Below are positions 40,948 through 56,493 of a DNA stretch of 56,493 nt, one piece after another. Below the pieces are notes generated by a model. It did no database searches. It was not told the DNA's origin and was given only the letters and a program-made list of their open reading frames with translations. Location of the stretch: contig JANWZV010000001.1 in NCBI GenBank assembly GCA_025061805.1, positions 60,498 through 116,990 on the forward strand, given 5' to 3'. How positions within the stretch are numbered: the first letter of the stretch is position 1; each line of letters starts with the position of its first letter. Position numbers and translations under genes: made by a program. This stretch comes from Candidatus Dojkabacteria bacterium. Lineage in GTDB: Bacteria > Patescibacteriota > Dojkabacteria > J137.

Positions 40948-40996
40948 TTGTTTTGATTGACAAAATACTTTTTTTATCATAGAACAATGATAAATA

Positions 40997-41377: not shown

Positions 41378-41422
41378 TTTTTTGATTTGAAAATAATGAT
41401 TGTAAAAATCAACATCTTTTTC

Positions 41423-43804
41423 TTATAACCAGCGCCAGTTGTTGTGCAAATCTAGGTCAAAATCGAAAATTCTTATATTTTTGTTTGTACTGGTTGTCTT
41501 ATAATATCTATCGACAATGAAGCTTTTTCCATAGAAATTGTTTTTCCAGAAATTATTCAAAAGAGATAAAACTTGAAAACCGAGATTCGGTTTAGCAAAA
41601 ATTATTTCCATGGTTAAACTATATTTTTCTTCATCTAACATATGCCATGGAAAAAATTCTTTTTTTGCGTAACCAACATTGTTTAGAAAATCTTTTCTTA
41701 TGTTTGAAATCGTGTTAGGATAAATCTCTTGATACGGATGTGAAGGTATAGGATTGATTACTGGATCTAAAATGTTATTTTTCCAACCTCCGGGCCCGAA
41801 TGTTTTGTTTTGTCTTTTTATTTCGGAATTATCGAACAATTCGACATAAACAACATCACAAATATGAATTTTTTCAAGATTGAATATTTTTTTAAATTTT
41901 AAGTTTCCAAAAACAAGTTCGAAAGGAAGATGAAAAGTACTTAATTTATCCGAAGTATTTTTTCTTTTGATGAATTCGAATGTTTGTTGGTCATTCAATT
42001 CTTTATTTCCGCCAGAAATAAGAAGTTTTGGTTTCATGACCAATCCGAAATCAGGATTGAATGGCCTATATATGAGACTATCATCTATTGATTGTAATTT
42101 TTCATTCAATAGTTTCAATTTATCCTTGCCCGTCAATCTTACCCAATAATTTTCACTCGGTTCATTTGAAAATCTTTTTACTACTTTTATTTGAAAATTC
42201 TTGTCCGAAAAAATATTCGGATTATTTATGACCGTTGCTCTTATGGTGAAAGTAAATACCGTATCTTGATTTATCGGTTCTAACCAGCCTATCAAGTCTC
42301 CAGTATATTTGTTTATTTGAAGACCCGGTGGCAGTGGATTCGAGCCAGGAGCCAATGAATATTCTAAATCATCTCCGGTCGAAGTTTGTGCTTCGACATA
42401 AAAATAGCTCGGATATCTTTCGTAAATTGATCCCAAAAACGTTGTCGATGTTAACCAATTTATGGATATCGTAAAAACAGAGCTTAAAGAAAATGGATTT
42501 ACTGTAAGAGTAAAAATTTTTTCTACTGGATTGTTATAACCATCATAAGCAGTAACTAAAAATTGATATGTTTTAGGTTCTGCATCCATAGATATTGTTC
42601 CAAATATTTTTCCATCTTCGGAAAGGCTCAATCCTAAAGGAAGAGACCCTCCTCCTACTGGAGGAGGCGGTGATTCTATAAGAACAACCGGTGGATATAA
42701 ATATCCGGTTCCTCCATTGTTCACTATTATGCCTTTTATTTCTCCATTGTTGATAACTGGTGTTGCAGAGGCTGATGTAATGAACGTTTGTGTCGAAACG
42801 GTGGGAGGTGAAGTATATCCTAAACCTCCGGAAATCTGCGTTGTCGATTGAATAGAGCCACCAAAGATATTTGCGGTGAAATTTGCTCCGCTACCTCCAC
42901 CGCCCGAAAAAATTAAATTTGGCGGAAGTTTGAAGTTATATCCCCCGTTGACTATCGTCAGTGATTGAACAGAACCGCCGGATATATTGGCGTTTATTAC
43001 AGCGCCACCCCCCATGAAAAAATTTATCAATGGCGGATTCGATTGTTTATAATCTTTGCCAGGATCCGTTACTTGAATTGACAATACTGAACCATAGTAC
43101 ATATTTGCAAATGCTTTTGCTCCTTGCCCAAACGGCATTTTATATATTATCGGATCGTTGTCGTTATTCTGTGCATTAAGTTGAATATTTATGTTTTGTC
43201 CTTGAGTAAAATTACCGAGATTTGATGGTGTAAACCAAACCGGCGCAGTTTTTGTTTTTAAAAAGTTATATCTGAATATTATGGTAGAAGAAAAATCATT
43301 GTTGGATGCTGTAACAGAAAAATAATTTATTCCTTTGGGGTTAGAAGACAAAAATGTTCCCTGTAAAGTAGAACCTTGAATAGATATACCATTTGGTAAA
43401 TTATTGGAAGAGTAAGAAATCGTTCCGCTTCCTGTGCCAGGGTCAACATTCAATTGCAAGTAAAAATTTTGATTTTCATAAATGTTTCCTAAGTCTGGAT
43501 CATTTAACCATTTTATAGGTACCGGTTTCTTTTTTACTTCTATGGAAAAGGTTTTTTGAGAAGAAATAAAAGGCGTTTTTGCCAAAACATCAAAAGTAAA
43601 AATTGTAGTTGCATTAACTTGAGTTAAAATACCGTATATTCTTCCGTTGGAAAAAAAGTCTGTCGGACAAACACCCCCGATTAATTCGAAAACTACTGGT
43701 CCTGGACTATTTGTCAAAATTTCTAGCTTGACATCTATTGCCTCATTTTCAAAAGCGGAAACAAGAATACCAGATGGAGTTTTCCAATTTAAATAATAAC
43801 TCAT
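41423..43804 (-). CDS. Virion fibre/baseplate protein with Ig-like (putative-Ig / He_PIG-type) repeats and GY-type repeats (793 aa)
   Basis: LPNGISIQGSTLQGTF, LPLGLSLSEDGKIFGTIS and LPPGLQINKYTGDLIGWL fit the G.LP.GL.l...G.i.Gt pattern. The central repeats read GGSVQSLTIVNGGYNFKLPP, GGSIQSTTQISGGLGYTSPP and GEIKGIIVNNGGTGYLYPP. Confidence 0.5.
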   Translation of the reverse strand: MSYYLNWKTPSGILVSAFENEAIDVKLEILTNSPGPVVFELIGGVCPTDFFSNGRIYGILTQVNATTIFTFDVLAKTPFISSQKTFSIEVKKKPVPIKWLNDPDLGNIYENQNFYLQLNVDPGTGSGTISYSSNNLPNGISIQGSTLQGTFLSSNPKGINYFSVTASNNDFSSTIIFRYNFLKTKTAPVWFTPSNLGNFTQGQNINIQLNAQNNDNDPIIYKMPFGQGAKAFANMYYGSVLSIQVTDPGKDYKQSNPPLINFFMGGGAVINANISGGSVQSLTIVNGGYNFKLPPNLIFSGGGGSGANFTANIFGGSIQSTTQISGGLGYTSPPTVSTQTFITSASATPVINNGEIKGIIVNNGGTGYLYPPVVLIESPPPPVGGGSLPLGLSLSEDGKIFGTISMDAEPKTYQFLVTAYDGYNNPVEKIFTLTVNPFSLSSVFTISINWLTSTTFLGSIYERYPSYFYVEAQTSTGDDLEYSLAPGSNPLPPGLQINKYTGDLIGWLEPINQDTVFTFTIRATVINNPNIFSDKNFQIKVVKRFSNEPSENYWVRLTGKDKLKLLNEKLQSIDDSLIYRPFNPDFGLVMKPKLLISGGNKELNDQQTFEFIKRKNTSDKLSTFHLPFELVFGNLKFKKIFNLEKIHICDVVYVELFDNSEIKRQNKTFGPGGWKNNILDPVINPIPSHPYQEIYPNTISNIRKDFLNNVGYAKKEFFPWHMLDEEKYSLTMEIIFAKPNLGFQVLSLLNNFWKNNFYGKSFIVDRYYKTTSTNKNIRIFDFDLDLHNNWRWL

Positions 43805-43809
43805 GAAAA

Positions 43810-43817
43810 TATTTATG
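43810..43817 (-). promoter_or_regulatory. CATAAATA motif upstream of the gene starting at 43804
   Basis: The plus strand reads TATTTATG. The motif lies 5 nt before the ATG. Confidence 0.25.
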
Positions 43818-43860
43818 AATTATTATCTTTGATATGCTTGAAAAATTTCAATTAAAACTG

Positions 43861-45471
43861 TTAATAGATTCCGTAATCTTTCCTGAAAAAGTCTTTTGTT
43901 ATGAATATATCTCTGTAAATTTTTCTCATATCATCGATATCGTGTTTTCTTTTACCTATTTCTGGTATTTTTCCTTTTATCGTCAAATTGGACATGATGT
44001 ATTTTCTGATAGCATCTTCGAAAATATTCTTGAATTTATCACTGAATATGATCGTTTCTCTTTCTGGGCGCATCCAATGTTCCATAGATAAAATAATTTT
44101 CGGATTGCTGATGATTATTTTTTCTATATCTTTCTCTGTAAAGAATTTCTCTATCAAATCATATCTTCCTTTACTTCCAAAAAAATCCAAAATATACCAT
44201 GGAGATCTTTTTATTAATTCTCGCATGAATTTTTCATCATTCATAAAATTAAATATTATTTTTTCAAGATTGCCTTGTATTGATTTTTTATAGGACAAAT
44301 CATCTGCTATTATTTCTACTAATTTTTCCTTGAATTTATCCAAGAATTTAAAATCCACTATTTCATATATTACTTTGAATATTTCGTCATTCAAAAGCAT
44401 TCTATGTATTATCTTATCGCTAATTTTTCTTAAATGTTTTTCCGTCATATGCAGTCTTAGAAAATTAATAAATCTTTCGTTGGAAAGATTCATTCTTAAG
44501 AAAATCAATATATCATCTGGAGTCATTTCTTTTCCGGACAATATCATATTTGAAAATACTTGTCCTATTTCGTAACTTCCTGTTTTTTCAAAAACTCGAA
44601 CTAAATTTTCGATTGATATATCCCCTCTTTCCAGTAAATGCTCGATTTCTAGTTGCTTTAGATTCTCTATTTCATCATCGGTAAAAGATTTTTTTTCTTC
44701 TTTTGCTTTTTTTATTTTTTCTTCATATTTTGATAATACGTCAGAAACTTTCGGATACTTTTGCAAGAAAATCTTGATGTCTATAGTATTTTTATTTTCA
44801 TCGCTGAAATAATCATGATTATATTCATAAAAATATTTTTTATTTTTATCTTTTAATACTATACAATATATGGGATATTTATCTAATGATGATATTCTTC
44901 TGGAATAGACAAATGCATCCCATTGTGTATTCTTAAATATATAATAGAGATGATTGATATTTTTTGGTCTTAAGATCAATAATTCGTTATCTTCATATAA
45001 AGTAAATTCTCGTAAAAATTCCTTTATTCTTTGTCTTCCTTTTTCAAAACTATCGGAATTATATTTTTTCATCATTTCATAAAAATCAGAAATTTTATAT
45101 ATATACTGTATTCTTTCGTCTTGCGGTTCTAGACTTTTCGTTTTTAATAGATAGTTGTATCTTGATAAAAGAGGTATGACTTTTCTTTTTATCTCTTCAT
45201 AAGTCAAATTATCTTCTTTCAGATAAATATCGAGAATCCAATCAAAATAAGTTCTTATATATATAAATTTATCGCCTGCCAAAGTTTTCAATGATTTATA
45301 AAAATCGCTTATTTTTTCATAAGGATTTGTGTTATCTTTTGCGATTTTTCTTGAATAAGCCTTTTTATTATCTTCCGAAAAATAATCATCATTCAAAAGA
45401 TTCATATCTATTTTGTATAAATTCTCTTTTAATGTTGTTCGATGTCTATATATTATCTCTTTTGCTTTCAT
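43861..45471 (-). CDS. Divergent fourth member of the NTRWC-module paralog family (536 aa)
   Basis: It aligns with the N-terminal module of 50484.., 52863.. and 54917... KFIYIRTYFDWILDIYL..LTYEEIKRKVIPLLSRY matches KFQFIDPYVKWIVQKYV..LYEDILGKVIPGLLRY. FKNTQWDAF occupies the position of GRNTRWCTA. YPIYCIVLKDKNKKYFYEY matches GPLYIILDKKKNKRFQFHF. Confidence 0.6.
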   Translation of the reverse strand: MKAKEIIYRHRTTLKENLYKIDMNLLNDDYFSEDNKKAYSRKIAKDNTNPYEKISDFYKSLKTLAGDKFIYIRTYFDWILDIYLKEDNLTYEEIKRKVIPLLSRYNYLLKTKSLEPQDERIQYIYKISDFYEMMKKYNSDSFEKGRQRIKEFLREFTLYEDNELLILRPKNINHLYYIFKNTQWDAFVYSRRISSLDKYPIYCIVLKDKNKKYFYEYNHDYFSDENKNTIDIKIFLQKYPKVSDVLSKYEEKIKKAKEEKKSFTDDEIENLKQLEIEHLLERGDISIENLVRVFEKTGSYEIGQVFSNMILSGKEMTPDDILIFLRMNLSNERFINFLRLHMTEKHLRKISDKIIHRMLLNDEIFKVIYEIVDFKFLDKFKEKLVEIIADDLSYKKSIQGNLEKIIFNFMNDEKFMRELIKRSPWYILDFFGSKGRYDLIEKFFTEKDIEKIIISNPKIILSMEHWMRPERETIIFSDKFKNIFEDAIRKYIMSNLTIKGKIPEIGKRKHDIDDMRKIYRDIFITKDFFRKDYGIY

Positions 45472-45717
45472 GTTGATTGTCCAAAAAAGGATTTGTTATT
45501 TTTTTGCTTCACGATTTCAATCTGTATTTATTTTTTGGAAGAAAAACCAACAAAGAAAAGATAAACGAGTCCATGTCCAAATTGTAAAGTTTTTTATATT
45601 TAAATTCTATGGTATTGATAAAAATTTTCTTGTTCATGAAGAAGTTATTTAAGTTCAAGAAGTTTCTACGAATTCTATAACAATAGAAACCCTGATTGCA
45701 GATGTCAATATCTTAAT

Positions 45718-46611
45718 TTAATAATGTTCCAAAACTGAAAATATTTTTTTTATTTCGCGAAAATCAAAAAAATCATAAAAGTATGTTTCTCCCGTAAGTT
45801 TCGTGTATAATAAAAAATCTTCTTTCTTGTTTGGATCAATCAGAAAAAAGGTATATCTGTTTATTCTGAATACTTCGTTTTTGTTTTTATGATTTTTTAT
45901 CGAAAAATCCTTGAAATATTCCAAATCCAGATTGTTGTTCGTAAACAACACGCATAAGCAAAAATTTTTATTGAAAAATTCTTCATCATTAAAATTTTTA
46001 TAATTAAAAATCATCGTGTCGTGAAAAATTTTAAGTATTGATATCGGAATCAAAAGTTTGTCATCGGTTTTTCTTCTATTGTTGAAAATCGTGGAAATAT
46101 TATTGAATATTTTCAAATCAACTATGTTTAGGTTTTCAATGAATTGTATATTGTATCTGAGTGTATCTAAATCTTCGAAGTAAAATTCCTTTTCTTTTGT
46201 ATTTTTGTAAAAAAATTTGTATATTTTTATATTATCTATGAAATTTTGATTGATTATTTTGTAATAATTTTTCGTTAAAATCAGCAAAAACGTATATAAA
46301 AATAGTTTTGATAGTTGAGGACTTACGTGAGGGGAATTTTTAAAAATTTTGAATATATCGATTAGATTTTCTTTTTCATCTTTTTCTTTGGCATAAAATA
46401 AAAATCTATTTTCGTCTATATATTTTTTGTATATCTTCATTTCGTTTAATACAAAAGGACCAAAATAACCCAACAAAGACAAATTTTTGTTATATATATT
46501 TTTGAAATCTTCTTCTTTTTCATTAAAGGTAAAACTTATATCCAAATCACTGAACAAACTTAATAAATTATTTTTTTCGTCATATAATCCGAAAAAATTG
46601 TTATATTTCAT
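45718..46611 (-). CDS. Hypothetical protein (297 aa)
   Basis: ORF from the track. Confidence 0.6.
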   Translation of the reverse strand: MKYNNFFGLYDEKNNLLSLFSDLDISFTFNEKEEDFKNIYNKNLSLLGYFGPFVLNEMKIYKKYIDENRFLFYAKEKDEKENLIDIFKIFKNSPHVSPQLSKLFLYTFLLILTKNYYKIINQNFIDNIKIYKFFYKNTKEKEFYFEDLDTLRYNIQFIENLNIVDLKIFNNISTIFNNRRKTDDKLLIPISILKIFHDTMIFNYKNFNDEEFFNKNFCLCVLFTNNNLDLEYFKDFSIKNHKNKNEVFRINRYTFFLIDPNKKEDFLLYTKLTGETYFYDFFDFREIKKIFSVLEHY

Positions 46612-46686
46612 TTTTTATATTTAGAAATTTTTTGTCGATAATGCCCGAAACTTAACTTAAATGATATCTAGTTCTTGAATAATTGT

Positions 46687-47823
46687 TTATAACCTGACAT
46701 CACTGAAAATATCGTCAGTAAGATCGTTTTCTATGGCACCGATAGTATAGCTGCTTATTTCTGTTTCTTGTGGCGCAACTTGGACTTCGGAACCAGCTAT
46801 CCATCTTGATGTCCACGGCAAGGGATTGGATGAAACTTTATATGGAGACTTTAGTCCAACGCTATTCATTCTTTTGGTTGTGATCCATTCGACATAATCA
46901 CAAAGAACCATTTCATTTAGTCCTAACATACTTCCATCCTTAAACAAGTATTTTGCCCAAGCTTTTTCTTGTTCTGCAGCTTGAAGATAAAGTTCTTCGG
47001 CTTCTTTTACTGAATTTTCTTTTATTTCCGCAAAATCTTCATCATCATTAGGTAACATTTTTAACAATGTTTGAGTAGAAGCAAGATGAACGTTTTCGTC
47101 TCTGCAAATGAATTTTATTATTTTTGCATTTCCTTCCATAACTTTTTTAGATTCTGCAAATGCCCAAGAACAAGCAAAAGATACGTAGAATCTTATTCCT
47201 TCCAAAACATTTACGCTCATTATTGTCAACCATAATAGCTTTTTTATTTCTTTTAAAGATACAACTATTTCTTCGCCATTTACGATATGTCTACCTTCTC
47301 CTAATAAATTATACCATTGTACTTTTTCTATGAGTTGATCATAATATTTTGTTATATCTTTTGCACAATCTACAATTTCTTGTATTTCTGTCAATTCGTC
47401 GAAAATAATAGAAGGATCAGGATAAACATTTCTTATGATATGAGTATAAGATCTCGAATGAATTGTTTCATTGAATGCCCAAGTTTGAACCCATATTTCT
47501 AATTCTGGAACCGAAACTATGGGAAGAAAAGCCAAATTCGGAGATCTTCCTTGAACAGAATCCAAGAGTATTTGTCTTTTTAGATTTGACGTAAAGATAT
47601 GTTTTTCGTGTTCTGGAAGTTGTTTGAAATCCTTAGCGTCTCGCAAAATATCTACTTCTTCGGGACGCCAAAAGAAACCCAATTGCTTGTCTGTCAGTTT
47701 ATCGAAATACGGATATTTTAATTTATCATATCTTTGTATTACAACTCCCCCACCTGGGTCCAAGAATAATTTTGCTTTTGTGTGGTCAGTTTTGTTTTCT
47801 AAATTGAATACTGATATTGTCAT
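46687..47823 (-). CDS. nrdB: Ribonucleotide reductase class Ia beta subunit
   Basis: Colinear with E. coli NrdB: FFWRPEEVD, LPEHEKHIF, LLDSVQGRSPN, WAFNETIHSRSYTHIIRN, LEGIRFYVSFACS, EGNAKII, RDENVHL and a C-terminal acidic tail. Confidence 0.92.
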   Translation of the reverse strand: MTISVFNLENKTDHTKAKLFLDPGGGVVIQRYDKLKYPYFDKLTDKQLGFFWRPEEVDILRDAKDFKQLPEHEKHIFTSNLKRQILLDSVQGRSPNLAFLPIVSVPELEIWVQTWAFNETIHSRSYTHIIRNVYPDPSIIFDELTEIQEIVDCAKDITKYYDQLIEKVQWYNLLGEGRHIVNGEEIVVSLKEIKKLLWLTIMSVNVLEGIRFYVSFACSWAFAESKKVMEGNAKIIKFICRDENVHLASTQTLLKMLPNDDEDFAEIKENSVKEAEELYLQAAEQEKAWAKYLFKDGSMLGLNEMVLCDYVEWITTKRMNSVGLKSPYKVSSNPLPWTSRWIAGSEVQVAPQETEISSYTIGAIENDLTDDIFSDVRL

Positions 47824-47870
47824 TTTTCTTTCTTTATTATATGAAATTCGATGTTAAAAAGCAAGTTTTT

Positions 47871-49133
47871 TTAGGTAAACATATATACTCTTCTATTTAT
47901 ATTCCCGGGTCCTATATTGAATAAATCCATTCTTAATACATATTGTTGATTAACACTTCCTGGAACAAAATAAACATCTCCATTACCGGCAACAACAGCG
48001 TCGGTGAAAGCACCAGAACCTGGAGCATTACCAAATGGTATAACTGTGTTAGTTACCGGGTCATAAATTTCAAATATAGTTGAATTGAAAGGAACGAGGA
48101 GTATTCTTCCATTCGGCAGTACGACTGAAGAAAAATAAGAATCGGCAGATGTATTGTTGACTGCTGGCCCGGTTGTTATCGTATTTGTCTGTGGATCAAA
48201 AATTCTTATGTTTGTTGCGCCTCTAGGAGTTAAAAATATTCTTCCGTCTGGCATTAAAGTGAGTTTTCCTATATCATCTGTAAAAGGTGGAGTAACATCA
48301 GAAAAAGTAGTAGAATTCGTTATCGGAAGGTTCGCTACGGTTATGACACAGTTTGTTGCAGAAACAGGATTTTTTATTATGATTCTTTCATTATCTAGTG
48401 TTGAACATGCCGTTCTTCTAGGCAAAAGAGATGGAGTAAGTCCAAATGGAGAAAAATATGATGGACCGACTTGTTGATATTTTGGTGAAGCATTTTCATC
48501 GAAAAAAATAAATCTAGAAAAATTTTGTGGGATAAAATAATGTATTATATTACTTGTAGATCCATTAATCTTTACGAAATATTTTACCATTAATGCGCTT
48601 TTTTCTGTTCCTGGTATTGATGTAGATTCTAATATAGATTGATTATTTTGTAAATTATAAGCTTGTGAAAAATTATGAGAAACTAATACACTCATGGGAG
48701 AATAATTTTCTGTTATACATCCGCCATAAAAATCTAACGGAGAAGAAGCAAAAGTAAAAATTCCTGTTATAAATGTTTTTGTTTCTGGTTCTATCATACA
48801 TGTATTGTTAAACGTAAGATTCGCTGCAAAATATATTATATTACCATTTAAACATGCACCATTAGAATATTTCAATGGTGTCGTTATTCCACCAGGAAAA
48901 GTTATTGATGGTAATATTTGTATATAATAACTTGTTCCGAAAAAACGATAACTTTCGTATAAAATAGTATTGTTCGATGTTTCTCCGGGTCTATCATAGA
49001 CTCTTGCTTGTTTTCCTTTATAAAGCCTAGATATGGGAAAAACAGTTCTAACAAGATTTATGTTTGTTTCTTTACTCCTTATTATTATACTAGTTTTTCT
49101 CTCAGAAAGTATAGATGATATGGATCTTGACAT
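47871..49133 (-). CDS. Repeat-containing (beta-propeller-like) putative virion protein, paralog A (420 aa)
   Basis: It has repeated blades such as LMPDGRIFLTPRGATNIRIFDPQTNTITTG, VLPNGRILLVPFNSTIFEIYDPVTNTV and VAGNGDVYFVPGS. Confidence 0.45.
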   Translation of the reverse strand: MSRSISSILSERKTSIIIRSKETNINLVRTVFPISRLYKGKQARVYDRPGETSNNTILYESYRFFGTSYYIQILPSITFPGGITTPLKYSNGACLNGNIIYFAANLTFNNTCMIEPETKTFITGIFTFASSPLDFYGGCITENYSPMSVLVSHNFSQAYNLQNNQSILESTSIPGTEKSALMVKYFVKINGSTSNIIHYFIPQNFSRFIFFDENASPKYQQVGPSYFSPFGLTPSLLPRRTACSTLDNERIIIKNPVSATNCVITVANLPITNSTTFSDVTPPFTDDIGKLTLMPDGRIFLTPRGATNIRIFDPQTNTITTGPAVNNTSADSYFSSVVLPNGRILLVPFNSTIFEIYDPVTNTVIPFGNAPGSGAFTDAVVAGNGDVYFVPGSVNQQYVLRMDLFNIGPGNINRRVYMFT

Positions 49134-49141
49134 TTATTGAT

Positions 49142-49149
49142 TATTTATT
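49142..49149 (-). promoter_or_regulatory. AATAAATA motif upstream of the gene starting at 49133
   Basis: The plus strand reads TATTTATT. The motif lies 8 nt before the ATG and overlaps the stop of the upstream paralog. Confidence 0.3.
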
Positions 49150-50386
49150 AATCTGTATTCAAAAAGGGACTAGTTAAGATATGTATATTTGATTTTAAGT
49201 TATAGCTATTGAAGAAAAACGATAGTATTCTGGAGTTTGTAATAATAATTAATTGATTTTTGTCTGTTACTTTTACACTTAATAAAAATTCTAACGGAAC
49301 TTTGGTAAAAGATAAATTAGATGAATTATATTCTATTATGTTTGATTTTATGATAGGATGCGACACTTGGAAAATAATATTATTTGCATCTTCAGAAATT
49401 CCTATATTAGTAAAAATTCCTGGTATAGTAGCTATTTTGAAAATATTACCTATAAAAGACGGATCTATGGGGAAATTTGGAGTTCTGAATCTTTTGTTGA
49501 TGTAATCATAAATTCTCATATTCGAAGCAGAACTACTTAAGATAAAAAGATTTCCTCCTTCTAAAGGAGAAAAAAACGATGTTCTATAATTCTGTCCTGG
49601 TGGGAGAGATATGTTTGGTGTCGTAAGTGTATCGTTTATTGGATCATAAATCAAAAAATAATTATGTATCGTTGTGTTGTTTGAAAAAAATATAACCTCT
49701 CCTGTTGGCAAAAGTTGACTATTTATGAATGGGTGTGGTGTTGGAAACGTAACAGACGGCGTAGAATAAGCATTAGTGAAAGGATTATAAATCAATAATC
49801 TGTCGTTTAATCTAGGACAATGCAATACTCTTCCATCCAATAAAAGAATTCCTTTTACAAATGAATTAAACGGTGCGGCAAAAGTATAAGATGGAGTAAA
49901 AACTGTGTTATTGAATGGGTTATATATTACGGAATATGAAGATTGATTGGGAACGTTATATACTCTTCCGTCTTTCAATAAAACAGTAGAAGAAAATCCG
50001 TCTGTTCCGAAATAAGAACCACTGGGAGTAGATAATGTATAAGTTGTTGTATCGAAAATGAGAGCATTTGTGTTGGAACCTGGCCCAATGAATATATTGC
50101 CATTTTTTAATAAAACACTGCTTCTGTAGTTCCCGAATGTTCCAGATATTTGTCTGTTTAAATCTGGAATACAATTAAATCGACCTAAATTATCTACAAA
50201 TAAAGAATCAAAATTAAAATAATTGCTTGAACAAATTGCTCCCTTATCGTATAGGGATGATGCAAAAGATGCGGCAAAATTATTATATATTCTAGGATTA
50301 TTGGAATCCCAACCAAAAATGGCATGGCCATTCCATTTGTCGTAAAATACAGTAGAATAATTCAAAAAAGTATTCGCTGTTGTCAC
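49148..50386 (-). CDS. Repeat-containing (beta-propeller-like) putative virion protein, paralog B (412 aa, GTG start)
   Basis: It has the same blade motif: LLKNGNIFIGPGSNTNALIFD, LLKDGRVYNVPNQSSYSVIYNPFNNTV, LLLDGRVLHCPRLNDRLLIYNPFTN and LLPTGEVIFFS...LIYDPINDT. Confidence 0.45.
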   Translation of the reverse strand: MTTANTFLNYSTVFYDKWNGHAIFGWDSNNPRIYNNFAASFASSLYDKGAICSSNYFNFDSLFVDNLGRFNCIPDLNRQISGTFGNYRSSVLLKNGNIFIGPGSNTNALIFDTTTYTLSTPSGSYFGTDGFSSTVLLKDGRVYNVPNQSSYSVIYNPFNNTVFTPSYTFAAPFNSFVKGILLLDGRVLHCPRLNDRLLIYNPFTNAYSTPSVTFPTPHPFINSQLLPTGEVIFFSNNTTIHNYFLIYDPINDTLTTPNISLPPGQNYRTSFFSPLEGGNLFILSSSASNMRIYDYINKRFRTPNFPIDPSFIGNIFKIATIPGIFTNIGISEDANNIIFQVSHPIIKSNIIEYNSSNLSFTKVPLEFLLSVKVTDKNQLIIITNSRILSFFFNSYNLKSNIHILTSPFLNTD

Positions 50387-50468: not shown

Positions 50469-50476
50469 AATAAATA
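50469..50476 (+). promoter_or_regulatory. AATAAATA motif upstream of paralog 1 (ATG 50484)
   Basis: Exact 8-mer located 7 nt before the ATG. It is conserved at the same offset in paralogs 2 and 3. Confidence 0.4.
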
Positions 50477-50483
50477 TATCAAA

Positions 50484-52436
50484 ATGCTCATAAAAGAAAT
50501 ACTTCTTGAATATAATTTACAGAATCTTTTGTCTTTGTTTTCTGAAAAATACGAATTGATCCAAAGAAGGGATTTTTCTAATAAACATAAAACATTGGAA
50601 AATTTTTTAAAATCTATAGAAGATTTTCTTAGAAAAGAAAATAAGTTTCAATTTATTGATCCATATGTGAAATGGATAGTACAGAAATATGTAACCAATA
50701 ATCTTGGATTGTATGAAGATATTTTAGGTAAAGTCATACCGGGATTACTAAGATATGATTCCTTGAAAAGAAAAAACAAACTGAAATCCGAACACAAGGA
50801 TATTAATCAGATAAAAAATATAAATCAATTGTTAGATATTTTAGATGAATATAAAGAAGAAGAAACAAAAAGTATATCTGAAAAAGAAAAAGAAATTGAA
50901 CAAAATTTTTATAAGAATGGGGAAGCTATTTTGATATATAATGATAATAATTTGAAAGTTGTCGTTCCCAAATCAAAAGCAGCGTCTTGTTTTTTTGGAA
51001 GAAACACCAGATGGTGCACTGCTGCTTCTACTTCAAAAAATTATTTTAACTTCTATAATAAAAAAGGGCCTTTATATATAATATTGGATAAGAAGAAGAA
51101 TAAAAGATTTCAATTTCATTTCGAAACGAAACAATTCATGGACGAAAAAGATCAACCAATAAGAATAGAAGATTTCAAGACAAATTATCCGATATTATCT
51201 AATATCTTTCGTGAAATCGAGAAAAAGAACTATAAAACTAAAGTTTTTTACGATATATCGGAATTGACATCCAGTGATATTGCTCGTATGTTAACTGATA
51301 CTTGGACAATGTCTATTTCTGATTATGCATTGAGTATTCTAAAAAAAGATTCTAGCTTCATAGATGATATTTTCATAAAAACTTTTTATAAAACACTAAA
51401 AAGTAAGAAACATAATGATGAAAAAAGTGTATCTTTTCGAAAATTTCTTGGTTTTTTGCTCGAAGGAGATACAACAATAAAACAAGAGCAAGAAGATTTA
51501 TTTCTTAGACTTTTTTTTACTGATGGAGATTTTATCAATGAATTGATCAAAAATTCAAATTTTTTATCACAAATATTGAAAAAATATGAACATTTTTTCA
51601 AAAAAGAAGAAATAAAGGAAAAAATAAAAAAAATTAGTCTTGATGCTTATCTTAAAATATATTTGTATGAATATGATTCATCAAGAAAAAGTGAAATAGA
51701 AAAGATAGTGAACGATAATGAGTTATTGTCAACGCCCGCTTTACAATTTTACGTCATAAAAACTTCTATTTTTAGGGACATGTTTGTCGATAATTTGGAC
51801 ATTTTTATTAAATTTTGTGAAAATTTGTTGAAATGGAATGATACATACTTAATAAACAAATATATAGAACTCATTTTTTCTGTTTATGATGAATATAATA
51901 AAAAAAGAGTAAATAGTCAAAAATTGGATAAAATTTTTTCTGAGCTGTTGAAGATATCGTTTAACACCAGTCATAAAGAAAAAATTTTTCAACAAGTTAA
52001 AGATATGGAGTTCTTTAGGAAAAATTTCGAAAGTATATTTTTTGATTTATTGAAGGATTTCAAATTCATGCTTTTATTTGATTATGATTTTTCCAAGAAT
52101 GAATTTTTTAGAATTCTCAAAAAAGCAGCTAAAACTCCTGAAATGTTCGATAATATTTTAGGAATAGTAGATATTGTAAAAGTTTTTATGAAAATAAACA
52201 GAGAAAAAAAATTTACTAAAAAAGAGAAATTTTCTTTTATTGATACTTTATTTAAAATGAATCCGAATTTTCATAATAACGTTTTAAAAAATATAGTAGA
52301 GGCAAACGAAAAAGAAAATGTTTTTGAAGATTTGTTTAAAACAGATACTTTCAAGGATTATTTGAAAAATAAAATTTTTGTCGGAGATCATAAAAATAAA
52401 ATAAATCCATATTATATAAATTATTTCAATCAGTAA
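50484..52436 (+). CDS. NTRWC-module family protein, paralog 1 (650 aa)
   Basis: The start was set at ATG 50484 by homology with paralogs 2 and 3 (MLIKEILLEYNLQNLLSLFSEKY). The module motif is SCFFGRNTRWCTAA...GPLYIILDKKKNKRFQFHFETKQFMDEKDQPI. Confidence 0.7.
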   Translation: MLIKEILLEYNLQNLLSLFSEKYELIQRRDFSNKHKTLENFLKSIEDFLRKENKFQFIDPYVKWIVQKYVTNNLGLYEDILGKVIPGLLRYDSLKRKNKLKSEHKDINQIKNINQLLDILDEYKEEETKSISEKEKEIEQNFYKNGEAILIYNDNNLKVVVPKSKAASCFFGRNTRWCTAASTSKNYFNFYNKKGPLYIILDKKKNKRFQFHFETKQFMDEKDQPIRIEDFKTNYPILSNIFREIEKKNYKTKVFYDISELTSSDIARMLTDTWTMSISDYALSILKKDSSFIDDIFIKTFYKTLKSKKHNDEKSVSFRKFLGFLLEGDTTIKQEQEDLFLRLFFTDGDFINELIKNSNFLSQILKKYEHFFKKEEIKEKIKKISLDAYLKIYLYEYDSSRKSEIEKIVNDNELLSTPALQFYVIKTSIFRDMFVDNLDIFIKFCENLLKWNDTYLINKYIELIFSVYDEYNKKRVNSQKLDKIFSELLKISFNTSHKEKIFQQVKDMEFFRKNFESIFFDLLKDFKFMLLFDYDFSKNEFFRILKKAAKTPEMFDNILGIVDIVKVFMKINREKKFTKKEKFSFIDTLFKMNPNFHNNVLKNIVEANEKENVFEDLFKTDTFKDYLKNKIFVGDHKNKINPYYINYFNQ

Positions 52437-52556
52437 TTAAATTTTTTTCATTTGTTGCTTTATGATGTTTTTTCATGATAATTTTTTTATTGTTATGATC
52501 AAGTAATATCGAATAAAAAACTTATCTTGTTTTTCGTTCAAAAACAATAGTATATA

Positions 52557-52585
52557 TTGCTTTTAATCACAATATCGCCTATATA
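52557..52585 (+). promoter_or_regulatory. Sigma70-like promoter candidate pointing into the GC-rich island
   Basis: TTGCTT (52557-62), a 17-nt spacer and TATATA (52580-85). The predicted start near 52592 coincides with the left edge of the island. Such matches are common in AT-rich DNA. Confidence 0.2.
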
Positions 52586-52590
52586 TACAT

Positions 52591-52846
52591 CAAGCCATGA
52601 AGCTGCATACCTTACTGTGAAAATTTAACACCAACAACGCATGTCGCTCGTACCTGAAATCGGTACATTGGCCGCATTGACCTCGTATGCGATCATTGCG
52701 GCTCCGTAGACAACGCCACTCCTGTCAAGGGACGCACCGGATTCTGGCGCTGCCGTGCCTGCGACAAGCAGTTCAGGGTCGCGGCGGTTCACTTCCGAGT
52801 GTTGCTCACGGTTGCATCTGGCTACTAAAAGCGATAAGCGCGAGAA
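52591..52846. other. GC-rich compositional island of unknown nature (candidate structured RNA/5' leader, foreign DNA fragment, or assembly artefact)
   Basis: By my hand count, 52631-52850 has 125 G+C of 220 nt (about 57%). The 100 nt at 52441-52540 have 20 of 100 (20%). Nothing else in the window has this composition. Confidence 0.5.
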
Positions 52847-52847
52847 C

Positions 52848-52855
52848 AATAAATA
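52848..52855 (+). promoter_or_regulatory. AATAAATA motif upstream of paralog 2 (ATG 52863)
   Basis: Exact 8-mer located 7 nt before the ATG, immediately after the GC island. Confidence 0.4.
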
Positions 52856-52862
52856 CATTAAA

Positions 52863-54818
52863 ATGCGCATAAAAGAAATACTTCTTGAATATAATTTACA
52901 GAATCTTTTATCTTTATTTTCTGAAAAATACAAGTCAATACAAAAAAAAGACAGTTCTAACAAATATGAATCATTAGAAGAATTCATTAAATCTATTGAA
53001 GAACCACTTAGAAAAGAAAATAAGTTTCAATTTATCGAACCATATATGAAATGGATAGTACAAAGATATGTAACCAATAATCTTGGATTGTATGAAGATA
53101 TGTTCGGTAAAACTGTTCCTGGATTATTAAAGTACGATATTCTGAAAAGAAAAAACAAACTTAAACAAGAGCATAAAGATGTGAATAAAATAAAAAATTT
53201 AAATCATCTGCTAGATATATTGAATGAATATCAGAGTGAAGATACGAGAAGCAATACCGAAAAAGAAAAAGAAATTGAACAAAATTTTTATGACAATGGA
53301 GAAGCTGAATTGATTTATAATGATAGCAATTTCAAGATTGTTATTCCTAAATCGGAAAGAGCGTCTTGTTTTTTTGGAAAAAATACCAGATGGTGTACTG
53401 CGGCAACCGAGTCGGAAAATTTATTCAATAGATATAATGAAATGGGAAATTTGTATATATTGATTGATAAAAAAAATAAAAGAAAATTTCAATTTCATTT
53501 CGAGGCAGCGCAATTTATGGATGAAAAAGATGAACCAATAGATCTAATAGATTTTGAAAAAAATTATAATTACACAGTTCCTATTTTATCAAAATTGGCA
53601 AAAAAACATAATAGCTTTTTCTTTGTTCCTTTAAAAGATTTAAATGAAAAACAATTAGAAGAATTATGTGCCAATTATACATGGTATTTTGTCGAAAAAA
53701 TAAATTTAGAAAAATATAAACATAAGAATTTAGAACATATCATAATCAAAAGTATTCCTGTTCTCATTGATTCCGATTATGTGTTTTTGTTATTGAAAAA
53801 TTTTCCAGATTTGCTTAAAAATGAAATGTTTGTAACCAGGGCTATAAAAAAACTTACCCGTAAAAGTGATATAAACAAATTCATAAAAAAGATAAATTTA
53901 ACTTTTGAAGAAGCGGTCAAATTTATTATAAAGGACGAAGATGTTTATTTGGCATTGAAGGATTTTTTTCCTGAGTTAAAAAAAGACAAAGTTGTTGAAT
54001 TTTTATTGGAAAAAAATCCTAGAGTGATTGATTTTATCGACATAAGTGAACTATCAGAAAATATGATCAAAAAAATATTGAAGAAAAATGAAAAAAAGAT
54101 AAAAAGTTATTTGTTCGATTTGCAAATGAAATCGAATCTTCGTTCTTTTTTATTAAAAATAGAAGATAAAGAATTATTAAAGAGTTTTTTTAATTTATTT
54201 CCATCTTATGAATATCTTTATGTGCTTGAACCTGGATATTTAGATGATAGAAAGGTTTATGATTTCATAATCAATACAGATTTACCAAATGATACTCAAA
54301 TAAATTCAAATGTCATACAATATTTTCAAAGATACATAGATGATTTCATCAAAAATTCTTTTTATAAACCTTTTGTATATATGGATGTTTCTGATTTTAT
54401 GGAAGACCAACTATTCAAGATAATAACAAATGATAAAGTAGAGGATTCTTATGCGATATATTATTTCGGCAGAATAAAGAATATTGAAAAAATAACCGAT
54501 AAAAACATTTATAATAAGATATTGAATTATCTTATAGATAATAATATATCTAGGTTTTTTCAACTTATGAATTTCACAAGATATTCCGCGCGCTATGAAG
54601 AATATGATCCTCTTTCTTATCGTTTTCTGAATTTTGAAAATAATATTGAAATATTGAAAAAATTAACTAAAACAAATGAAGAAAGTCTTCAAAAAGTAAA
54701 AAAAGATTACATAATAAAGTTTTTAAAATTATTGAAAAAGTCTAACAAAAAATCTTTTGATTATTTGATAAACAACAATGAGTATTTCTCGGAAATTTAT
54801 GAAAATTTTCTTGTTTGA
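52863..54818 (+). CDS. NTRWC-module family protein, paralog 2 (651 aa)
   Basis: The start was set at ATG 52863 (MRIKEILLEYNLQNLLSLFSEKY) by homology. The track's GTG start at 52755 would add 36 aa encoded by the GC island. The module motif is SCFFGKNTRWCTAA...GNLYILIDKKNKRKFQFHFEAAQFMDEKDEPI. Confidence 0.7.
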   Translation: MRIKEILLEYNLQNLLSLFSEKYKSIQKKDSSNKYESLEEFIKSIEEPLRKENKFQFIEPYMKWIVQRYVTNNLGLYEDMFGKTVPGLLKYDILKRKNKLKQEHKDVNKIKNLNHLLDILNEYQSEDTRSNTEKEKEIEQNFYDNGEAELIYNDSNFKIVIPKSERASCFFGKNTRWCTAATESENLFNRYNEMGNLYILIDKKNKRKFQFHFEAAQFMDEKDEPIDLIDFEKNYNYTVPILSKLAKKHNSFFFVPLKDLNEKQLEELCANYTWYFVEKINLEKYKHKNLEHIIIKSIPVLIDSDYVFLLLKNFPDLLKNEMFVTRAIKKLTRKSDINKFIKKINLTFEEAVKFIIKDEDVYLALKDFFPELKKDKVVEFLLEKNPRVIDFIDISELSENMIKKILKKNEKKIKSYLFDLQMKSNLRSFLLKIEDKELLKSFFNLFPSYEYLYVLEPGYLDDRKVYDFIINTDLPNDTQINSNVIQYFQRYIDDFIKNSFYKPFVYMDVSDFMEDQLFKIITNDKVEDSYAIYYFGRIKNIEKITDKNIYNKILNYLIDNNISRFFQLMNFTRYSARYEEYDPLSYRFLNFENNIEILKKLTKTNEESLQKVKKDYIIKFLKLLKKSNKKSFDYLINNNEYFSEIYENFLV

Positions 54819-54900: not shown

Positions 54901-54908
54901 AATAAATA
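54901..54908 (+). promoter_or_regulatory. AATAAATA motif upstream of paralog 3 (ATG 54917)
   Basis: Exact 8-mer located 8 nt before the ATG. Confidence 0.4.
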
Positions 54909-54916: not shown

Positions 54917-56493
54917 ATGTTAATAAGAAAAATACTTCTAAAATTTAACTTACGAAGTCTTTTGTTGTTTTTTTCCGAAAAATATAAGCAAGTACAACAA
55001 AAAGATCATTCCAACAAATATAAATCACTTGAAGAATTTATTAAGTCAATCGAAGAACTGCTTAGAAAAGAAAATAAATTCCAATTCATAGAACCATACA
55101 TAAAATGGATAGTACAGAGATATGTAACTAATAATCTTGGATTGTATGAAGATGTGGTAAGTAGAGTCATACCAAGATTATTGAAGTATGATTCTTTGAA
55201 AAGAAAGAATAAATTAAGACCGAATCACAAAGACATAAGTCAAATAAAAAACATAGATCAGTTATTGGATGTCTTAGACGAATATCAAGAAGAGAAAACC
55301 GATTCAAAGAGTGAAGAAGAAAAAAGGATAGAACAAGAATTTTATTCATCTGGCGAAGCAGAATTGATTTATGATGATCATGAAATAAAAATAGTAATTC
55401 CTAAGACAGAAAGAGCAAATTGTTATTTTGGAAGAAATACAAGATGGCGCACTGCTGTCAAATATTCTAATAATTATTTTAGTGATTATAATAAAAAAGG
55501 ACCTTTATATATTATATTAATTAAAAAAGAAAACAAAAGATATCAATTTCATTTTGCAACAGATCAATTTAGAAATGAACAAGACAAATCCATAAATCCT
55601 AATTTATTGGCAGATAAATATCCTATATTATGGGAAATATTCACTCCTATAGCAGAAAAGTACAAGACGATATTTTTGAACAAAAATCCCTCGGAAGAAT
55701 CACAAATAAAAAGCATAAAAAGATGGCCCTATGATTTCATTTACATAAAAAATCCAAGCGAAGGAGCTCAATTGGAAGCAATTGAACATTCTCCCTATTT
55801 TATTAGACATATAAAAAATCCGAGTGAAAAAGTTCAATTAGCAGCAGTAAGAAAAAATGGTCTTACTATAAAATTCATAAAAAACCCATCTGAAGATATT
55901 CAATTGGAAGCAGTCAGAAACAATGGACTTGCTTTGCAATATATAAGAAATCCATCTGAAAAAGTTCAATTAGAAGCAATTAGAAAAAATCCATATGCTA
56001 TAGAATTTATAGAAAATCCAAGCGAAGAATTTCAGTTGGAAGCAATAAATAAAACGCCGTATGTTTTAAAATATATTGAAAATCCATCTGAAAAAGTTCA
56101 ATTAAAAGCAGTCAGGCAAAATAGTTCTTTTATCAAGATTATAAGAAACTCAAGTGAAAAAGTACAATTGACGGCAATAAATGATAATCCAATTGCTATA
56201 GTATTTATTAAAAATCCGATGGAAAAAGTTCAATTGGAAGCAGTTAAAAAAGATGCAACTGTCATAAGATATATCGAAAATCCTAGTGAAAAAGTTCAAT
56301 TGGAAGCAGTTAAACGGGATGAAGCTTTCATAAGATATATCAAAAATCCGAGTGAAAAAGTTCAGCTGGAGGCAGTCAAAAAATATGGAACTCTCATAAA
56401 ATATATTAAAAATCCGAGCGAAGAAGTTCAACTAGAAGCAGTAAAACAAAACAAAGATGCAATAAAATACATCGAAAACCCGTCAAAAAAGGT
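54917..56493 (+). CDS. NTRWC-module family protein, paralog 3, with a C-terminal array of 22-aa NPSExVQLEAV repeats; the gene runs off the right edge
   Basis: My own translation is MLIRKILLKFNLRSLLLFFSEKYKQVQQ...NCYFGRNTRWRTAV...GPLYIILIKKENKRYQFHFATDQF..., followed by (I/Y)IKNPSEKVQLEAVKxxxxxIxY repeated many times. It is absent from the ORF track because it is open at the edge. Confidence 0.7.
   Translation, partial: MLIRKILLKFNLRSLLLFFSEKYKQVQQKDHSNKYKSLEEFIKSIEELLRKENKFQFIEPYIKWIVQRYVTNNLGLYEDVVSRVIPRLLKYDSLKRKNKLRPNHKDISQIKNIDQLLDVLDEYQEEKTDSKSEEEKRIEQEFYSSGEAELIYDDHEIKIVIPKTERANCYFGRNTRWRTAVKYSNNYFSDYNKKGPLYIILIKKENKRYQFHFATDQFRNEQDKSINPNLLADKYPILWEIFTPIAEKYKTIFLNKNPSEESQIKSIKRWPYDFIYIKNPSEGAQLEAIEHSPYFIRHIKNPSEKVQLAAVRKNGLTIKFIKNPSEDIQLEAVRNNGLALQYIRNPSEKVQLEAIRKNPYAIEFIENPSEEFQLEAINKTPYVLKYIENPSEKVQLKAVRQNSSFIKIIRNSSEKVQLTAINDNPIAIVFIKNPMEKVQLEAVKKDATVIRYIENPSEKVQLEAVKRDEAFIRYIKNPSEKVQLEAVKKYGTLIKYIKNPSEEVQLEAVKQNKDAIKYIENPSKK
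55685..56493 (+). repeat. In-frame tandem coding repeats with a 66-nt (22-aa) period, at least 12 units, reminiscent of DUF4116-type repeats
   Basis: AATCC(N)AG(C/T)GAA (NPSE) recurs at 55685, 55751, 55817 and onward with a 66-nt spacing. The repeat continues to the window edge. Confidence 0.85.

What the first reader, a model, noticed from the sequence alone, without database searches (positions are those of the whole stretch)
52591..52846. Isolated ~57% GC island in ~20% GC DNA, immediately upstream of one paralog
Seen in the sequence: about 260 bp of 52591-52846 has a composition found nowhere else in the window. By hand count it is 125/220 G+C, against 20/100 just upstream. It ends 1 nt before the conserved AATAAATA-N7-ATG that starts paralog 2. 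The equivalent spacers of paralogs 1 and 3 have no such insert. A TTGCTT-N17-TATATA lies just upstream, so a plus-strand transcript could begin at the island edge. No intrinsic terminator follows, so the island could be a long structured leader of gene 52863. Short helices are possible, for example GTACC/GGTAC at 52650-54/52662-66, GCGAC/GTCGC at 52761-65/52778-82, and GCCGC..GACC with GGTC.GCGGC at 52671-82/52777-85. One plus frame runs from ATG 52641 (MSLVPEIGTLAALTSYAIIAAP), through a single TAG at 52707-09, straight into the paralog-2 ORF. A minus-strand frame is also open (...DPELLVAGTAAPESGASLDRSGVVYGAAMIAYEVNAANVPISGTSDM). Established knowledge: in AT-rich genomes, GC-rich islands often mark structured RNAs. 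Alternatives are a horizontally acquired fragment from a GC-richer genome or an assembly or vector chimera. I could not identify the sequence.
Basis: partly seen in the sequence, partly recalled or inferred. Interest (0 to 1): 0.7.

Follow-up and report, generated by a model that had tools for sequence, protein, structure and literature searches.

The report
Decayed mini insertion sequence in phage
The GC-rich island is the dead, internally deleted remnant of a bacterial jumping gene (an IS1595-family insertion sequence) that landed between two phage genes; it is neither a structured RNA nor an assembly error, and it is an ordinary kind of feature that is uncommon in phages.

Summary
Positions 52591-52846 are 54% GC in a 28% GC window, the most extreme 200-nt composition in 56 kb. 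The structured-RNA interpretation is not supported: Rfam gives no hit and the folding z-scores are -1.1 and -0.8.

This stretch carries one nonsense codon and one +1 frameshift. The repaired translation scores 40.9 bits against Pfam PF12760 (cut-off 25.4) and is 67% identical to a metagenomic transposase.

At DNA level, 52550-52787 matches the left end of full-length relatives (71% identity, E 3e-36). That match includes the inverted repeat and promoter. Positions 52782-52843 match their right end (81% identity, E 2e-10).

The feature is therefore a ~294-bp element (52550-52843). It has both ends but has lost about 870 bp, including the catalytic domain, between short direct repeats. It is flanked by a 7/8 to 8/9 target-site duplication. 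Removing it restores collinearity with the upstream region of paralog 1.

Relatives sit in 63-74% GC DNA, including Crenalkalicoccus roseus. Changes specific to the window copy are GC-to-AT 29 times and AT-to-GC 5 times. It is most likely an old, immobile fossil: a new member of a known kind, of low to moderate interest.

The parts
52542..52549 (.). Left copy of the flanking direct repeat (target-site duplication), AAACAATA. The 9-nt version is 52541-52549, AAAACAATA.
   Evidence: it matches 52844-52851 GAACAATA at 7/8, or 52843-52851 at 8/9. The empirical null is 3.4% (at least 7/8 or 8/9) and 1.3% (at least 8/9) when the termini are allowed +-2 nt of slop.
52550..52570 (+). Left end with the left inverted repeat. 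The core TATTGCTTTTAATCAC is at 52555-52570. The terminus is uncertain by about 2 nt.
   Evidence: it aligns with the L010 left end GTAGTTATTGCTTTCAGTCAC. L010 has a perfect 17-nt IR, TTATTGCTTTCAGTCAC, at both ends. The window IR core matches its right partner at 12/16.
52557..52585 (+). The IS's own sigma-70-like promoter, TTGCTT-N17-TATATA. The -35 element lies inside the left inverted repeat.
   Evidence: Seen directly in the sequence. L010 has TTGCTT-N17-TAACCA at the same place. Activity was not tested, and the consensus scan did not list it.
52597..52787 (+). Pseudogene remnant: codons 1-63 of an IS1595-family transposase, covering the N-terminal zinc-ribbon domain.
   Evidence: Repaired translation against PF12760: 40.9 bits, E 1.9e-10, profile 2-46/46. 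HMMER against 1.84e9 proteins: P0004 at 74% identity over the ribbon, E 2.2e-8. 42/63 residues identical to P0004. blastn to L010 553-785: 71% identity, E 3e-36.
52618..52620 (+). Nonsense codon TGA at codon 8, where relatives have CGG (Arg).
52675..52678 (+). One-nucleotide insertion (+1 frameshift) between WPH and VCDHCG. It creates the in-frame TGA at 52678.
   Evidence: window GCCGCATTGACC aligns with relatives' GCCGCA-CGGCC.
52778..52787 (+). Internal deletion junction, GTCGCGGCGG.
   Evidence: the left homology ends here and the right homology begins here. L010 carries CACGGCGGGC at both deletion end-points, 870 bp apart. L011 carries GTCACGGC at both, about 1.1 kb apart.
52788..52843 (+). 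Right end of the IS with the right inverted repeat. The core GCTACTAAAAGCGATA is at 52821-52836, and the terminus ...AAGCGCG(A) is at 52842/52843.
   Evidence: blastn identity is 81% to L010 1656-1716 (E 2e-10), 74% to L011, 79% to Crenalkalicoccus roseus L017 and 78% to L018. All five sequences diverge right after GCGCG.
52844..52851 (.). Right copy of the direct repeat, GAACAATA.
52849..52865 (+). Phage promoter-like motif ATAAATA (52849-52855) and the start codon of paralog 2 (ATG 52863). Both were left intact by the insertion.
   Evidence: ATAAATA lies within 40 nt upstream of 15 of 32 long ORFs, against a background of 0.5 per kb per strand; the same motif stands before paralogs 1 and 3.

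Best explanation
The island is the GC-rich core of a ~294-bp, non-autonomous, internally deleted insertion sequence of the IS1595 family (window ~52550-52843, plus strand).

Inferred history:
1. An IS from a GC-rich (~65%) bacterial lineage transposed into the spacer between phage paralogs 1 and 2, at the 5' edge of the ATAAATA promoter-like motif of paralog 2. It duplicated 8 (or 9) bp of target.
2. Either before or after insertion, about 870 bp were lost by recombination or slippage between two ~10-bp direct repeats inside the element. The lost DNA encoded the rest of the transposase, including the DDE domain. Both ends remained.
3. The remnant has since decayed under the AT-biased mutation of its 28% GC carrier: one nonsense codon, one frameshift, degenerate inverted repeats, and GC falling towards 54%.

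Today it most likely has no function and cannot move. It persists because the duplication kept the signals immediately upstream of paralog 2 intact.

Shown: homology of both ends, the family of the encoded domain, the disabling lesions, the flanking repeat, the paralogous empty site, and the AT-biased substitutions.

Inferred: the order of insertion and deletion, the deletion mechanism, neutrality, and immobility.
For: 1. Protein level.
- The single uninterrupted frame 52658-52825 finds IS1595-type transposase N-termini among 1.84e9 proteins. P0004 is 74% identical over residues 30-63 (E 2.2e-8), followed by P0005, P0006, P0029, P0037 and P0049.
- The repaired 63-codon translation scores 40.9 bits on PF12760 Zn_ribbon_IS1595, against a cut-off of 25.4.
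- A frameshift-aware alignment to P0004 starts at residue 1 = ATG 52597, with 42/63 identical residues.
- tblastn against plasmids returns only loci where the annotation, if any, is a (mostly IS1595-family) transposase.
- Relatives P0055 and P0004 pass NCBIfam NF033547, IS1595 family transposase (85 bits against 75). P0055 also passes PF12762 (33.2 against 27), while P0004 falls just short of it (26.7).

2. DNA level.
- 52550-52787 matches L010 553-785 (71% identity, E 3e-36), including 47 nt upstream of the ATG.
- 52782-52843 matches L010 1656-1716 (81% identity, E 2e-10), which is the other end of a 1164-bp element with perfect 17-nt inverted repeats.
- The right ends of five sequences stop being similar at the same base.

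3. Flanking direct repeat of 7/8 or 8/9, with a null of 1.3-3.4%. IS1595-family members make 8-bp (7-9 bp), often A/T-rich duplications (PMC12561309).

4. Deleting the element plus one repeat copy restores an alignment with the upstream region of paralog 1 that runs across the insertion point.

5. The deletion end-points coincide with direct repeats in the full-length relatives.

6. At columns where all relatives agree, the window copy differs by 29 GC-to-AT changes and 5 AT-to-GC changes.

7. No DDE part and no second copy exist anywhere in the window.
Against: - The closest relatives are only 71-81% identical at DNA level and come from 63-74% GC bacteria or metagenomes. The donor is therefore unknown, and a GC-rich IS in a 28% GC phage is an odd pairing.
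- The target-site duplication is imperfect, and its exact frame depends on termini known only to about 2 nt. It could not be verified in the relatives.
- The inverted-repeat core is only 12/16.
- No related phage genome was found, so there is no true empty site, only a paralogous one.
- No read-level evidence is available for the two junctions.
- Part of the AT bias could reflect an unsampled, less GC-rich donor rather than decay in place.
Confidence: 0.9

Rival explanations
1. Structured non-coding RNA, or a long structured 5' leader or riboswitch of paralog 2.
For: The segment is GC-rich in an AT-rich genome. A promoter-like TTGCTT-N17-TATATA lies upstream, and no terminator precedes gene 52863.
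Against: - No Rfam family reaches threshold; the best sub-threshold hit has E 0.96.
- Fold z-scores are -1.13 and -0.75.
- The sequence is homologous, codon by codon, to a transposase gene and to the two ends of an IS.
- Paralogs 1 and 3 lack it.
- Its substitutions relative to relatives are AT-biased decay, which does not suggest conservation.
Confidence: 0.02
2. A foreign DNA fragment captured without transposition. In this reading, illegitimate recombination or repair pasted in a piece of host or co-resident DNA that happened to contain an already deleted IS. The flanking repeat would then be microhomology or chance.
For: The direct repeat is imperfect and AT-rich, with a 1-3% chance level. 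No transposase is present in the window.
Against: The homology to relatives begins and ends at the IS termini (to within about 2 nt at the left end). No extra foreign flank is present on either side, and all right ends diverge at the same base. A random capture would not be expected to be cut at both IS ends.
Confidence: 0.05
3. Assembly chimera or contaminant/vector sequence.
For: The composition is completely unlike the rest of the contig. The region lies in a tandem paralog array, where assemblers struggle. The independent Logan contig L002 stops at 49808 and does not reach it.
Against: - There are no nucleotide matches in E. coli genomes and only chance-level ones in plasmids and phages.
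- Both flanks belong to the same phage and are collinear with the paralog-1 spacer once the element is removed.
- The element has both IS ends plus a flanking repeat.
- It is AT-shifted relative to all relatives, which is not expected of fresh contaminant reads.
Confidence: 0.02
4. Exapted remnant. The IS fossil is retained because its outward-reading promoter, or the ~270-nt leader it creates, now contributes to the expression of paralog 2 and so differentiates it from paralogs 1 and 3.
For: TTGCTT-N17-TATATA points towards paralog 2, and no terminator lies between them. The window -10 element (TATATA) is closer to consensus than the relative's TAACCA.
Against: Paralog 2 keeps its own ATAAATA motif, as the other paralogs do. 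The drift towards TATATA is what AT-biased decay would produce anyway. There are no expression data and no conservation data.
Confidence: 0.08

Closest known systems
IS1595-family insertion sequences (Siguier, Gagnevin & Chandler 2009, as cited in PMC12561309). The nearest sequenced relatives are the elements on Logan contig SRR28335996_50670 (L010) and JGI Ga0496059_000594 (L011), and a right end in Crenalkalicoccus roseus YIM 78023 (L017).
   Same: - The N-terminal transposase zinc ribbon (PF12760).
- Left and right terminal inverted repeats homologous to those of full-length elements.
- A promoter in the left end.
- A flanking 8-9-bp A/T-rich duplication.
   Different: - It lacks the HTH and DDE parts, about 870 bp.
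- The coding remnant carries a stop codon and a frameshift.
- The inverted repeats are degenerate.
- It is 54% GC instead of 63-74%.
- It resides in a 28% GC jumbo-type phage.
- Its ISfinder subgroup was not determined.
MITEs / internally deleted non-autonomous IS derivatives
   Same: It is small (~294 bp). It has both terminal repeats and a target-site duplication, lacks a transposase, and derives from a full-length IS by internal deletion between short direct repeats.
   Different: Only one copy is known. There is none elsewhere in the window, and the deletion-junction pattern does not occur in IMG/VR. It is therefore not shown to be a multi-copy, trans-mobilised family, and it may simply be an in-situ deletion.
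IS insertions in phage genomes (Leclercq & Cordaux 2011; commentary PMC3429520)
   Same: It is an IS-derived sequence sitting in an intergenic, apparently harmless site of a phage genome. This is consistent with strong selection against disruptive insertions.
   Different: Here it is a long-decayed fossil and not an intact IS. That implies long-term vertical persistence in a phage lineage.

Membership tests
IS1595 family insertion sequence | Transposase with an N-terminal IS1595-type zinc ribbon (Pfam PF12760) | tested here: met
   The repaired 63-aa translation scores 40.9 bits, E 1.9e-10, profile 2-46/46, against a cut-off of 25.4. The unrepaired single frame alone scores 21.8 bits. It is 67% identical over 63 codons to P0004, which itself hits PF12760 and NF033547.
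IS1595 family insertion sequence | DDE-type catalytic domain (PF12762 / NCBIfam NF033547) | tested here: not met
   It is absent from the element and from the whole window. tblastn with three full-length transposases finds only the zinc-ribbon region. It is present in the nearest relatives (P0055: NF033547 85 bits against 75; PF12762 33.2 against 27). The element is therefore a deletion derivative of a family member and not an autonomous member.
IS1595 family insertion sequence | Terminal inverted repeats at both ends | tested here: met
   The left core 52555-52570 matches the reverse complement of 52821-52836 at 12/16. Each arm is homologous to the perfect 17-nt IR of L010.
IS1595 family insertion sequence | 8-bp (7-9 bp) target-site duplication | tested here: met
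   AAACAATA / GAACAATA match at 7/8, or AAAACAATA / AGAACAATA at 8/9, directly abutting the homology boundaries. The empirical null is 1.3-3.4%. The family property is taken from PMC12561309. The repeat is imperfect, and the terminus is known only to about 2 nt.
IS1595 family insertion sequence | Assignment to an ISfinder subgroup (ISPna2, ISH4, IS1016, IS1595, ISSod11, ISNwi1, ISNha5) by end sequence and catalytic motif | not testable with these tools
   ISfinder is not available. The catalytic motif is deleted in the window copy, and the closest relatives appear frameshifted.
MITE (multi-copy non-autonomous element) | Several dispersed copies with the same internal deletion | tested here: not met
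   It is single-copy in the window. The junction-specific pattern has 0 hits in IMG/VR.
Structured RNA (Rfam families; generic cis-regulatory leader) | A match to a covariance model, or a fold more stable than shuffles with covariation | tested here: not met
   No hits at gathering score. The best E-value is 0.96, for Moco-II. z-scores are -1.13 and -0.75. Covariation was not assessed, because the only homologues are transposase genes.

The most novel reading that the evidence does not exclude
The remnant is not inert. It has been kept for a long time in the phage lineage because its IS-derived promoter or leader now gives paralog 2 an expression programme distinct from paralogs 1 and 3. That would be an IS-to-regulatory-element exaptation in a jumbo phage. 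The same remnant would also record past contact between a 28% GC phage lineage and an IS otherwise seen only in 63-74% GC Alphaproteobacteria-like DNA, which would bear on phage-mediated, long-range IS traffic.
Probability: 0.07. Interest if true: 0.5.

Novelty: new member of a known kind. Interest (0 to 1): 0.25.

Why it matters
The result mainly closes a question. A striking compositional anomaly turns out to be a transposable-element fossil, so it should not be pursued as a new RNA or flagged as a misassembly.

It has modest wider value:
- IS-derived DNA is scarce in phage genomes. About one IS per 346 kb was reported (PMC3429520).
- This copy documents a tolerated insertion site, at the edge of a promoter motif that the duplication regenerated.
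- It shows a clean microhomology-mediated route from an IS to a mini-element.
- It shows measurable AT-biased amelioration of foreign DNA in a 28% GC phage.
- It hints that the phage lineage, or its host, once met an IS whose known relatives live in very GC-rich bacteria.

Tried and rejected
- Rfam at gathering and at permissive threshold, ARAGORN, and RNA folding of both strands gave nothing beyond chance.
- blastn of the island gave no match in E. coli genomes and only chance-level short hits in plasmids and phages. An exact 30-mer had no hit in IMG/VR.
tblastn against phages found none.
- A degenerate WRCRACDKQF pattern had 0 hits in GTDB genomes.
- Looking for close relatives of the phage to obtain a true empty site failed. 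IMG/VR and JGI metagenomes hold only 30-38% identical homologues of the paralog, and megablast of 16 kb against phages found none.
- Looking for independent assemblies across the junctions failed. Five exact-protein look-ups (paralog 1 in two versions, paralog 2 in two versions, and the minus ORF) found nothing on record. Only L002 exists, and it ends at 49808.
- My early guess that the 3' third of the island continued the transposase in another frame (GSLPSVAHGCIWLLKAISAR as the HTH) was wrong. That part is the IS right end.
- A 24-nt match of the left end to 20724-20747 lies inside a radical-SAM ORF and was dismissed as chance.
- A search for the run accession SRR15826902 in the literature found nothing.

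Full report
**1.
Positions 52591-52846 are 54.3% GC in a window averaging 28.3% (sd 5.6% for 200-nt windows). The richest 200-nt window of all 56 kb lies here, at 57.5% GC (52631). Nothing elsewhere exceeds 47%.

- AATAAATA-N7-ATG 52863;
- TTGCTT-N17-TATATA at 52557-52585;
- a plus frame from 52641 broken only by TAG 52707;
- an open minus frame.

The spacers before paralogs 1 and 3 have no insert.

**2. Context.**
The window is a tailed-phage genome of the jumbo-myovirus type.
- The baseplate wedge protein matches phrog_10646 at 1103 bits, and there are tail-tube and virion structural proteins.
- The RNR beta subunit is about 60% identical to those of the 350-380-kb phages CBB, GAP32 and XbC2.

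The island sits in the 426-nt spacer between two members of a tandem array of at least three paralogs. These run 50484-52436, 52863-54818 and 54917 onward, and their N-terminal 300 aa are about 60% identical.

**3. It is not a recognisable structured RNA.**
- Rfam has no hit at gathering thresholds anywhere in the window. A permissive scan gives only a Moco-II match at E 0.96.
- ARAGORN finds nothing.
- The minimum free energies of both strands are within about one sd of dinucleotide shuffles, with z-scores of -1.13 and -0.75.

**4. It is not vector or contaminant.**
- blastn against all complete E. coli genomes returns nothing, and PLSDB plasmids and INPHARED phages return only chance-level hits.

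**5. What it encodes.**
Just upstream, in the neighbouring frame, it reads MKLHTLL*KFNTNNACRSYLKSVHWPH.

- Joined, these hit Pfam PF12760 (Zn_ribbon_IS1595) over the whole profile at 39.8-40.9 bits, against a cut-off of 25.4.
- The join was made by hand, so I also searched the uninterrupted frame alone (52658-52825, 56 aa) with HMMER against 1.84 billion representative proteins. Its single-stretch hits are transposase N-termini. P0004 is 74% identical at its residues 30-63 (E 2.2e-8), followed by P0005, P0006, P0029, P0037 and P0049.
- The sources call these proteins transposase-like.
- P0055 and P0004 pass NCBIfam NF033547, IS1595 family transposase (85 bits against 75). P0055 also passes PF12762, while P0004 falls just short of it (26.7 bits against 27).
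- A frameshift-aware alignment to P0004 starts at residue 1, which equals ATG 52597. It runs to codon 63 with 42/63 identities.
- The alignment exposes two lesions. One is TGA 52618, where relatives have CGG. The other is a 1-nt insertion near 52676.
- tblastn of the conceptual protein against plasmids returns only loci where the annotation, if any, is a (mostly IS1595-family) transposase, at 33-40% identity.
- tblastn of three full-length transposases against the window finds only this spot, with no DDE domain anywhere.

**6. Both ends of an IS are present.**
I fetched the DNA of the relatives: L010 (68% GC) and L011-L016 (67% GC).

- blastn shows that 52550-52787 aligns with L010 553-785 at 71% identity (E 3e-36). 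This includes 47 nt upstream of the start codon.
- 52782-52843 aligns with L010 1656-1716 at 81% identity (E 2e-10), and with L011 7304-7366.
- In L010 those two places are the ends of a 1164-bp element bounded by a perfect 17-nt inverted repeat, TTATTGCTTTCAGTCAC.
- A pattern built from the right end found two further copies. One is in Crenalkalicoccus roseus YIM 78023 (74% GC; the contig starts inside the IS). The other is in a 63% GC IMG/VR contig.
- In the five-way alignment, all right ends stay similar up to ...GCAATAAGCGCG and diverge immediately after it.

The true feature is therefore a ~294-bp element at 52550-52843. Its parts are:
- the left inverted repeat (core 52555-52570);
- the IS promoter, TTGCTT-N17-TATATA (L010 has TTGCTT-N17-TAACCA at the same place);
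- 63 transposase codons;
- a deletion junction;
- 56 nt of right end with the right inverted repeat (core 52821-52836, matching the left core at 12/16).

**7. The deletion.**
The left homology ends and the right homology begins within GTCGCGGCGG (52778-52787). Full-length relatives carry the same short sequence at both end-points. L010 has CACGGCGGGC twice, 870 bp apart. L011 has GTCACGGC twice, about 1.1 kb apart.

A deletion between these direct repeats, by slippage or microhomology recombination, explains the structure. This mechanism is inferred. Whether the deletion happened before or after the element entered the phage cannot be told.

**8. Insertion signature.**
Directly outside the homology boundaries lie AAACAATA (52542-52549) and GAACAATA (52844-52851), which match at 7/8. 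Read as 9 nt, they match at 8/9. Random positions in the window reach this in 1.3-3.4% of trials when the same +-2-nt slop is allowed.

IS1595-family elements make 8-bp (7-9 bp), preferentially A/T-rich duplications (PMC12561309).

Removing the element and one repeat copy gives ...GTTTTTCGTTCAAAAACAATAAATACATTAAAATG. This aligns with the upstream region of paralog 1 continuously across the insertion point, so paralog 1 serves as a paralogous empty site.

The insertion lies at the 5' edge of ATAAATA. That motif occurs within 40 nt upstream of 15 of 32 long ORFs, against a background of 0.5 per kb per strand. It resembles the T4 late-promoter consensus TATAAATA, as I recall it. The duplication left the motif intact in front of paralog 2, which plausibly explains why the insertion was tolerated.

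**9. Age and origin.**
At alignment columns where all relatives agree, the window copy differs 34 times. Of these, 29 are GC-to-AT, 5 are AT-to-GC, and one further change is a G-to-C transversion. Together with the stop codon, the frameshift and the degraded repeats, this indicates long neutral decay in an AT-biased genome.

An unsampled, less GC-rich donor could account for part of this bias. The donor is unknown. The best relatives are metagenomic or from a very GC-rich alphaproteobacterium, and are only 71-81% identical.

**10. What could not be done.**
- No close relative of the phage exists in IMG/VR, JGI metagenomes or INPHARED.
- The only independent assembly, Logan SRR15826902_2376, is 99.92% identical but covers 37910-49808, stopping 2.7 kb short of the island.
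- The deletion-junction pattern is absent from IMG/VR, so a multi-copy MITE family is not shown.
- Read support for the two junctions and transcription from the IS promoter remain untested.

**11. Verdict.**
The anomaly is real and is now explained. It is a decayed, internally deleted IS1595-family element with both ends and a target-site duplication, and it most likely has no function.

It is a new member of a known kind. It is somewhat unusual because IS-derived DNA is scarce in phages (PMC3429520), and because of the GC-rich ancestry of an element found in a 28% GC phage. It is not a new type of feature.

Noticed in passing
window 50484-52436, 52863-54818, 54917-56493 (+): A tandem array of at least three paralogous ~650-aa proteins. 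Their N-terminal ~300 aa are about 60% identical and include an invariant NTRW-TA motif. They match only the unknown-function families phrog_17056 and phrog_28193. The C-terminal halves differ, and paralog 3 carries DUF4116 repeats (PF13475, 70.7 bits). Only 30-38% identical relatives exist in IMG/VR and JGI contigs.
   Followed up: partly
window-wide; e.g. 50469-50475, 52849-52855, 54901-54907: The heptamer ATAAATA lies within 40 nt upstream of 15 of 32 long-ORF start codons, against a background of 0.5 per kb per strand. This is probably the phage's own promoter motif, similar to the T4 late promoter TATAAATA as I recall it.
   Followed up: partly
window 47871-49133 and 49148-50386 (-): Two adjacent ORFs of 420 and 412 aa are rich in N, P, T and S. 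One has a weak Kelch_6 match (E 7.7e-5, below cut-off). They look like another local duplication of beta-propeller-like proteins. No PHROG match.
   Followed up: no
L002 (Logan SRR15826902_2376) = window 37910-49808: An independent public sequencing run holds a 99.92% identical stretch of this phage (9 mismatches in 11,899 nt). The contig breaks inside the 412-aa paralog, 2.7 kb before the island.
   Followed up: yes
L010 1-585; L011 6922-7425 (also L012-L016): The relatives' loci are themselves mosaic. L010 has a second IS1595-like zinc-ribbon ORF directly upstream of the element. In L011-L016, an ORF with a PF07282 (TnpB/Cas12f-type zinc ribbon) hit lies between the transposase and the right end, which makes that element 1410 bp instead of 1164 bp.
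   Followed up: no
L018 4212-4968 (IMGVR_UViG_3300044960_000297, 63% GC): A viral contig carries the same IS group, with the left part and the right end only about 780 bp apart. This is shorter than the 1164-bp L010 element, so it may be another deletion derivative. It sits at the edge of the fetched locus.
   Followed up: partly
window 18.2-18.9 kb, 30.8-33.3 kb, 42.6-42.9 kb: These are the next-highest GC stretches of the window (45-47%). All lie inside long ORFs, e.g. the Gly-rich 917-aa ORF 30767-33520 and the He_PIG protein 41423-43804. They look like amino-acid-composition effects and not foreign DNA.
   Followed up: no
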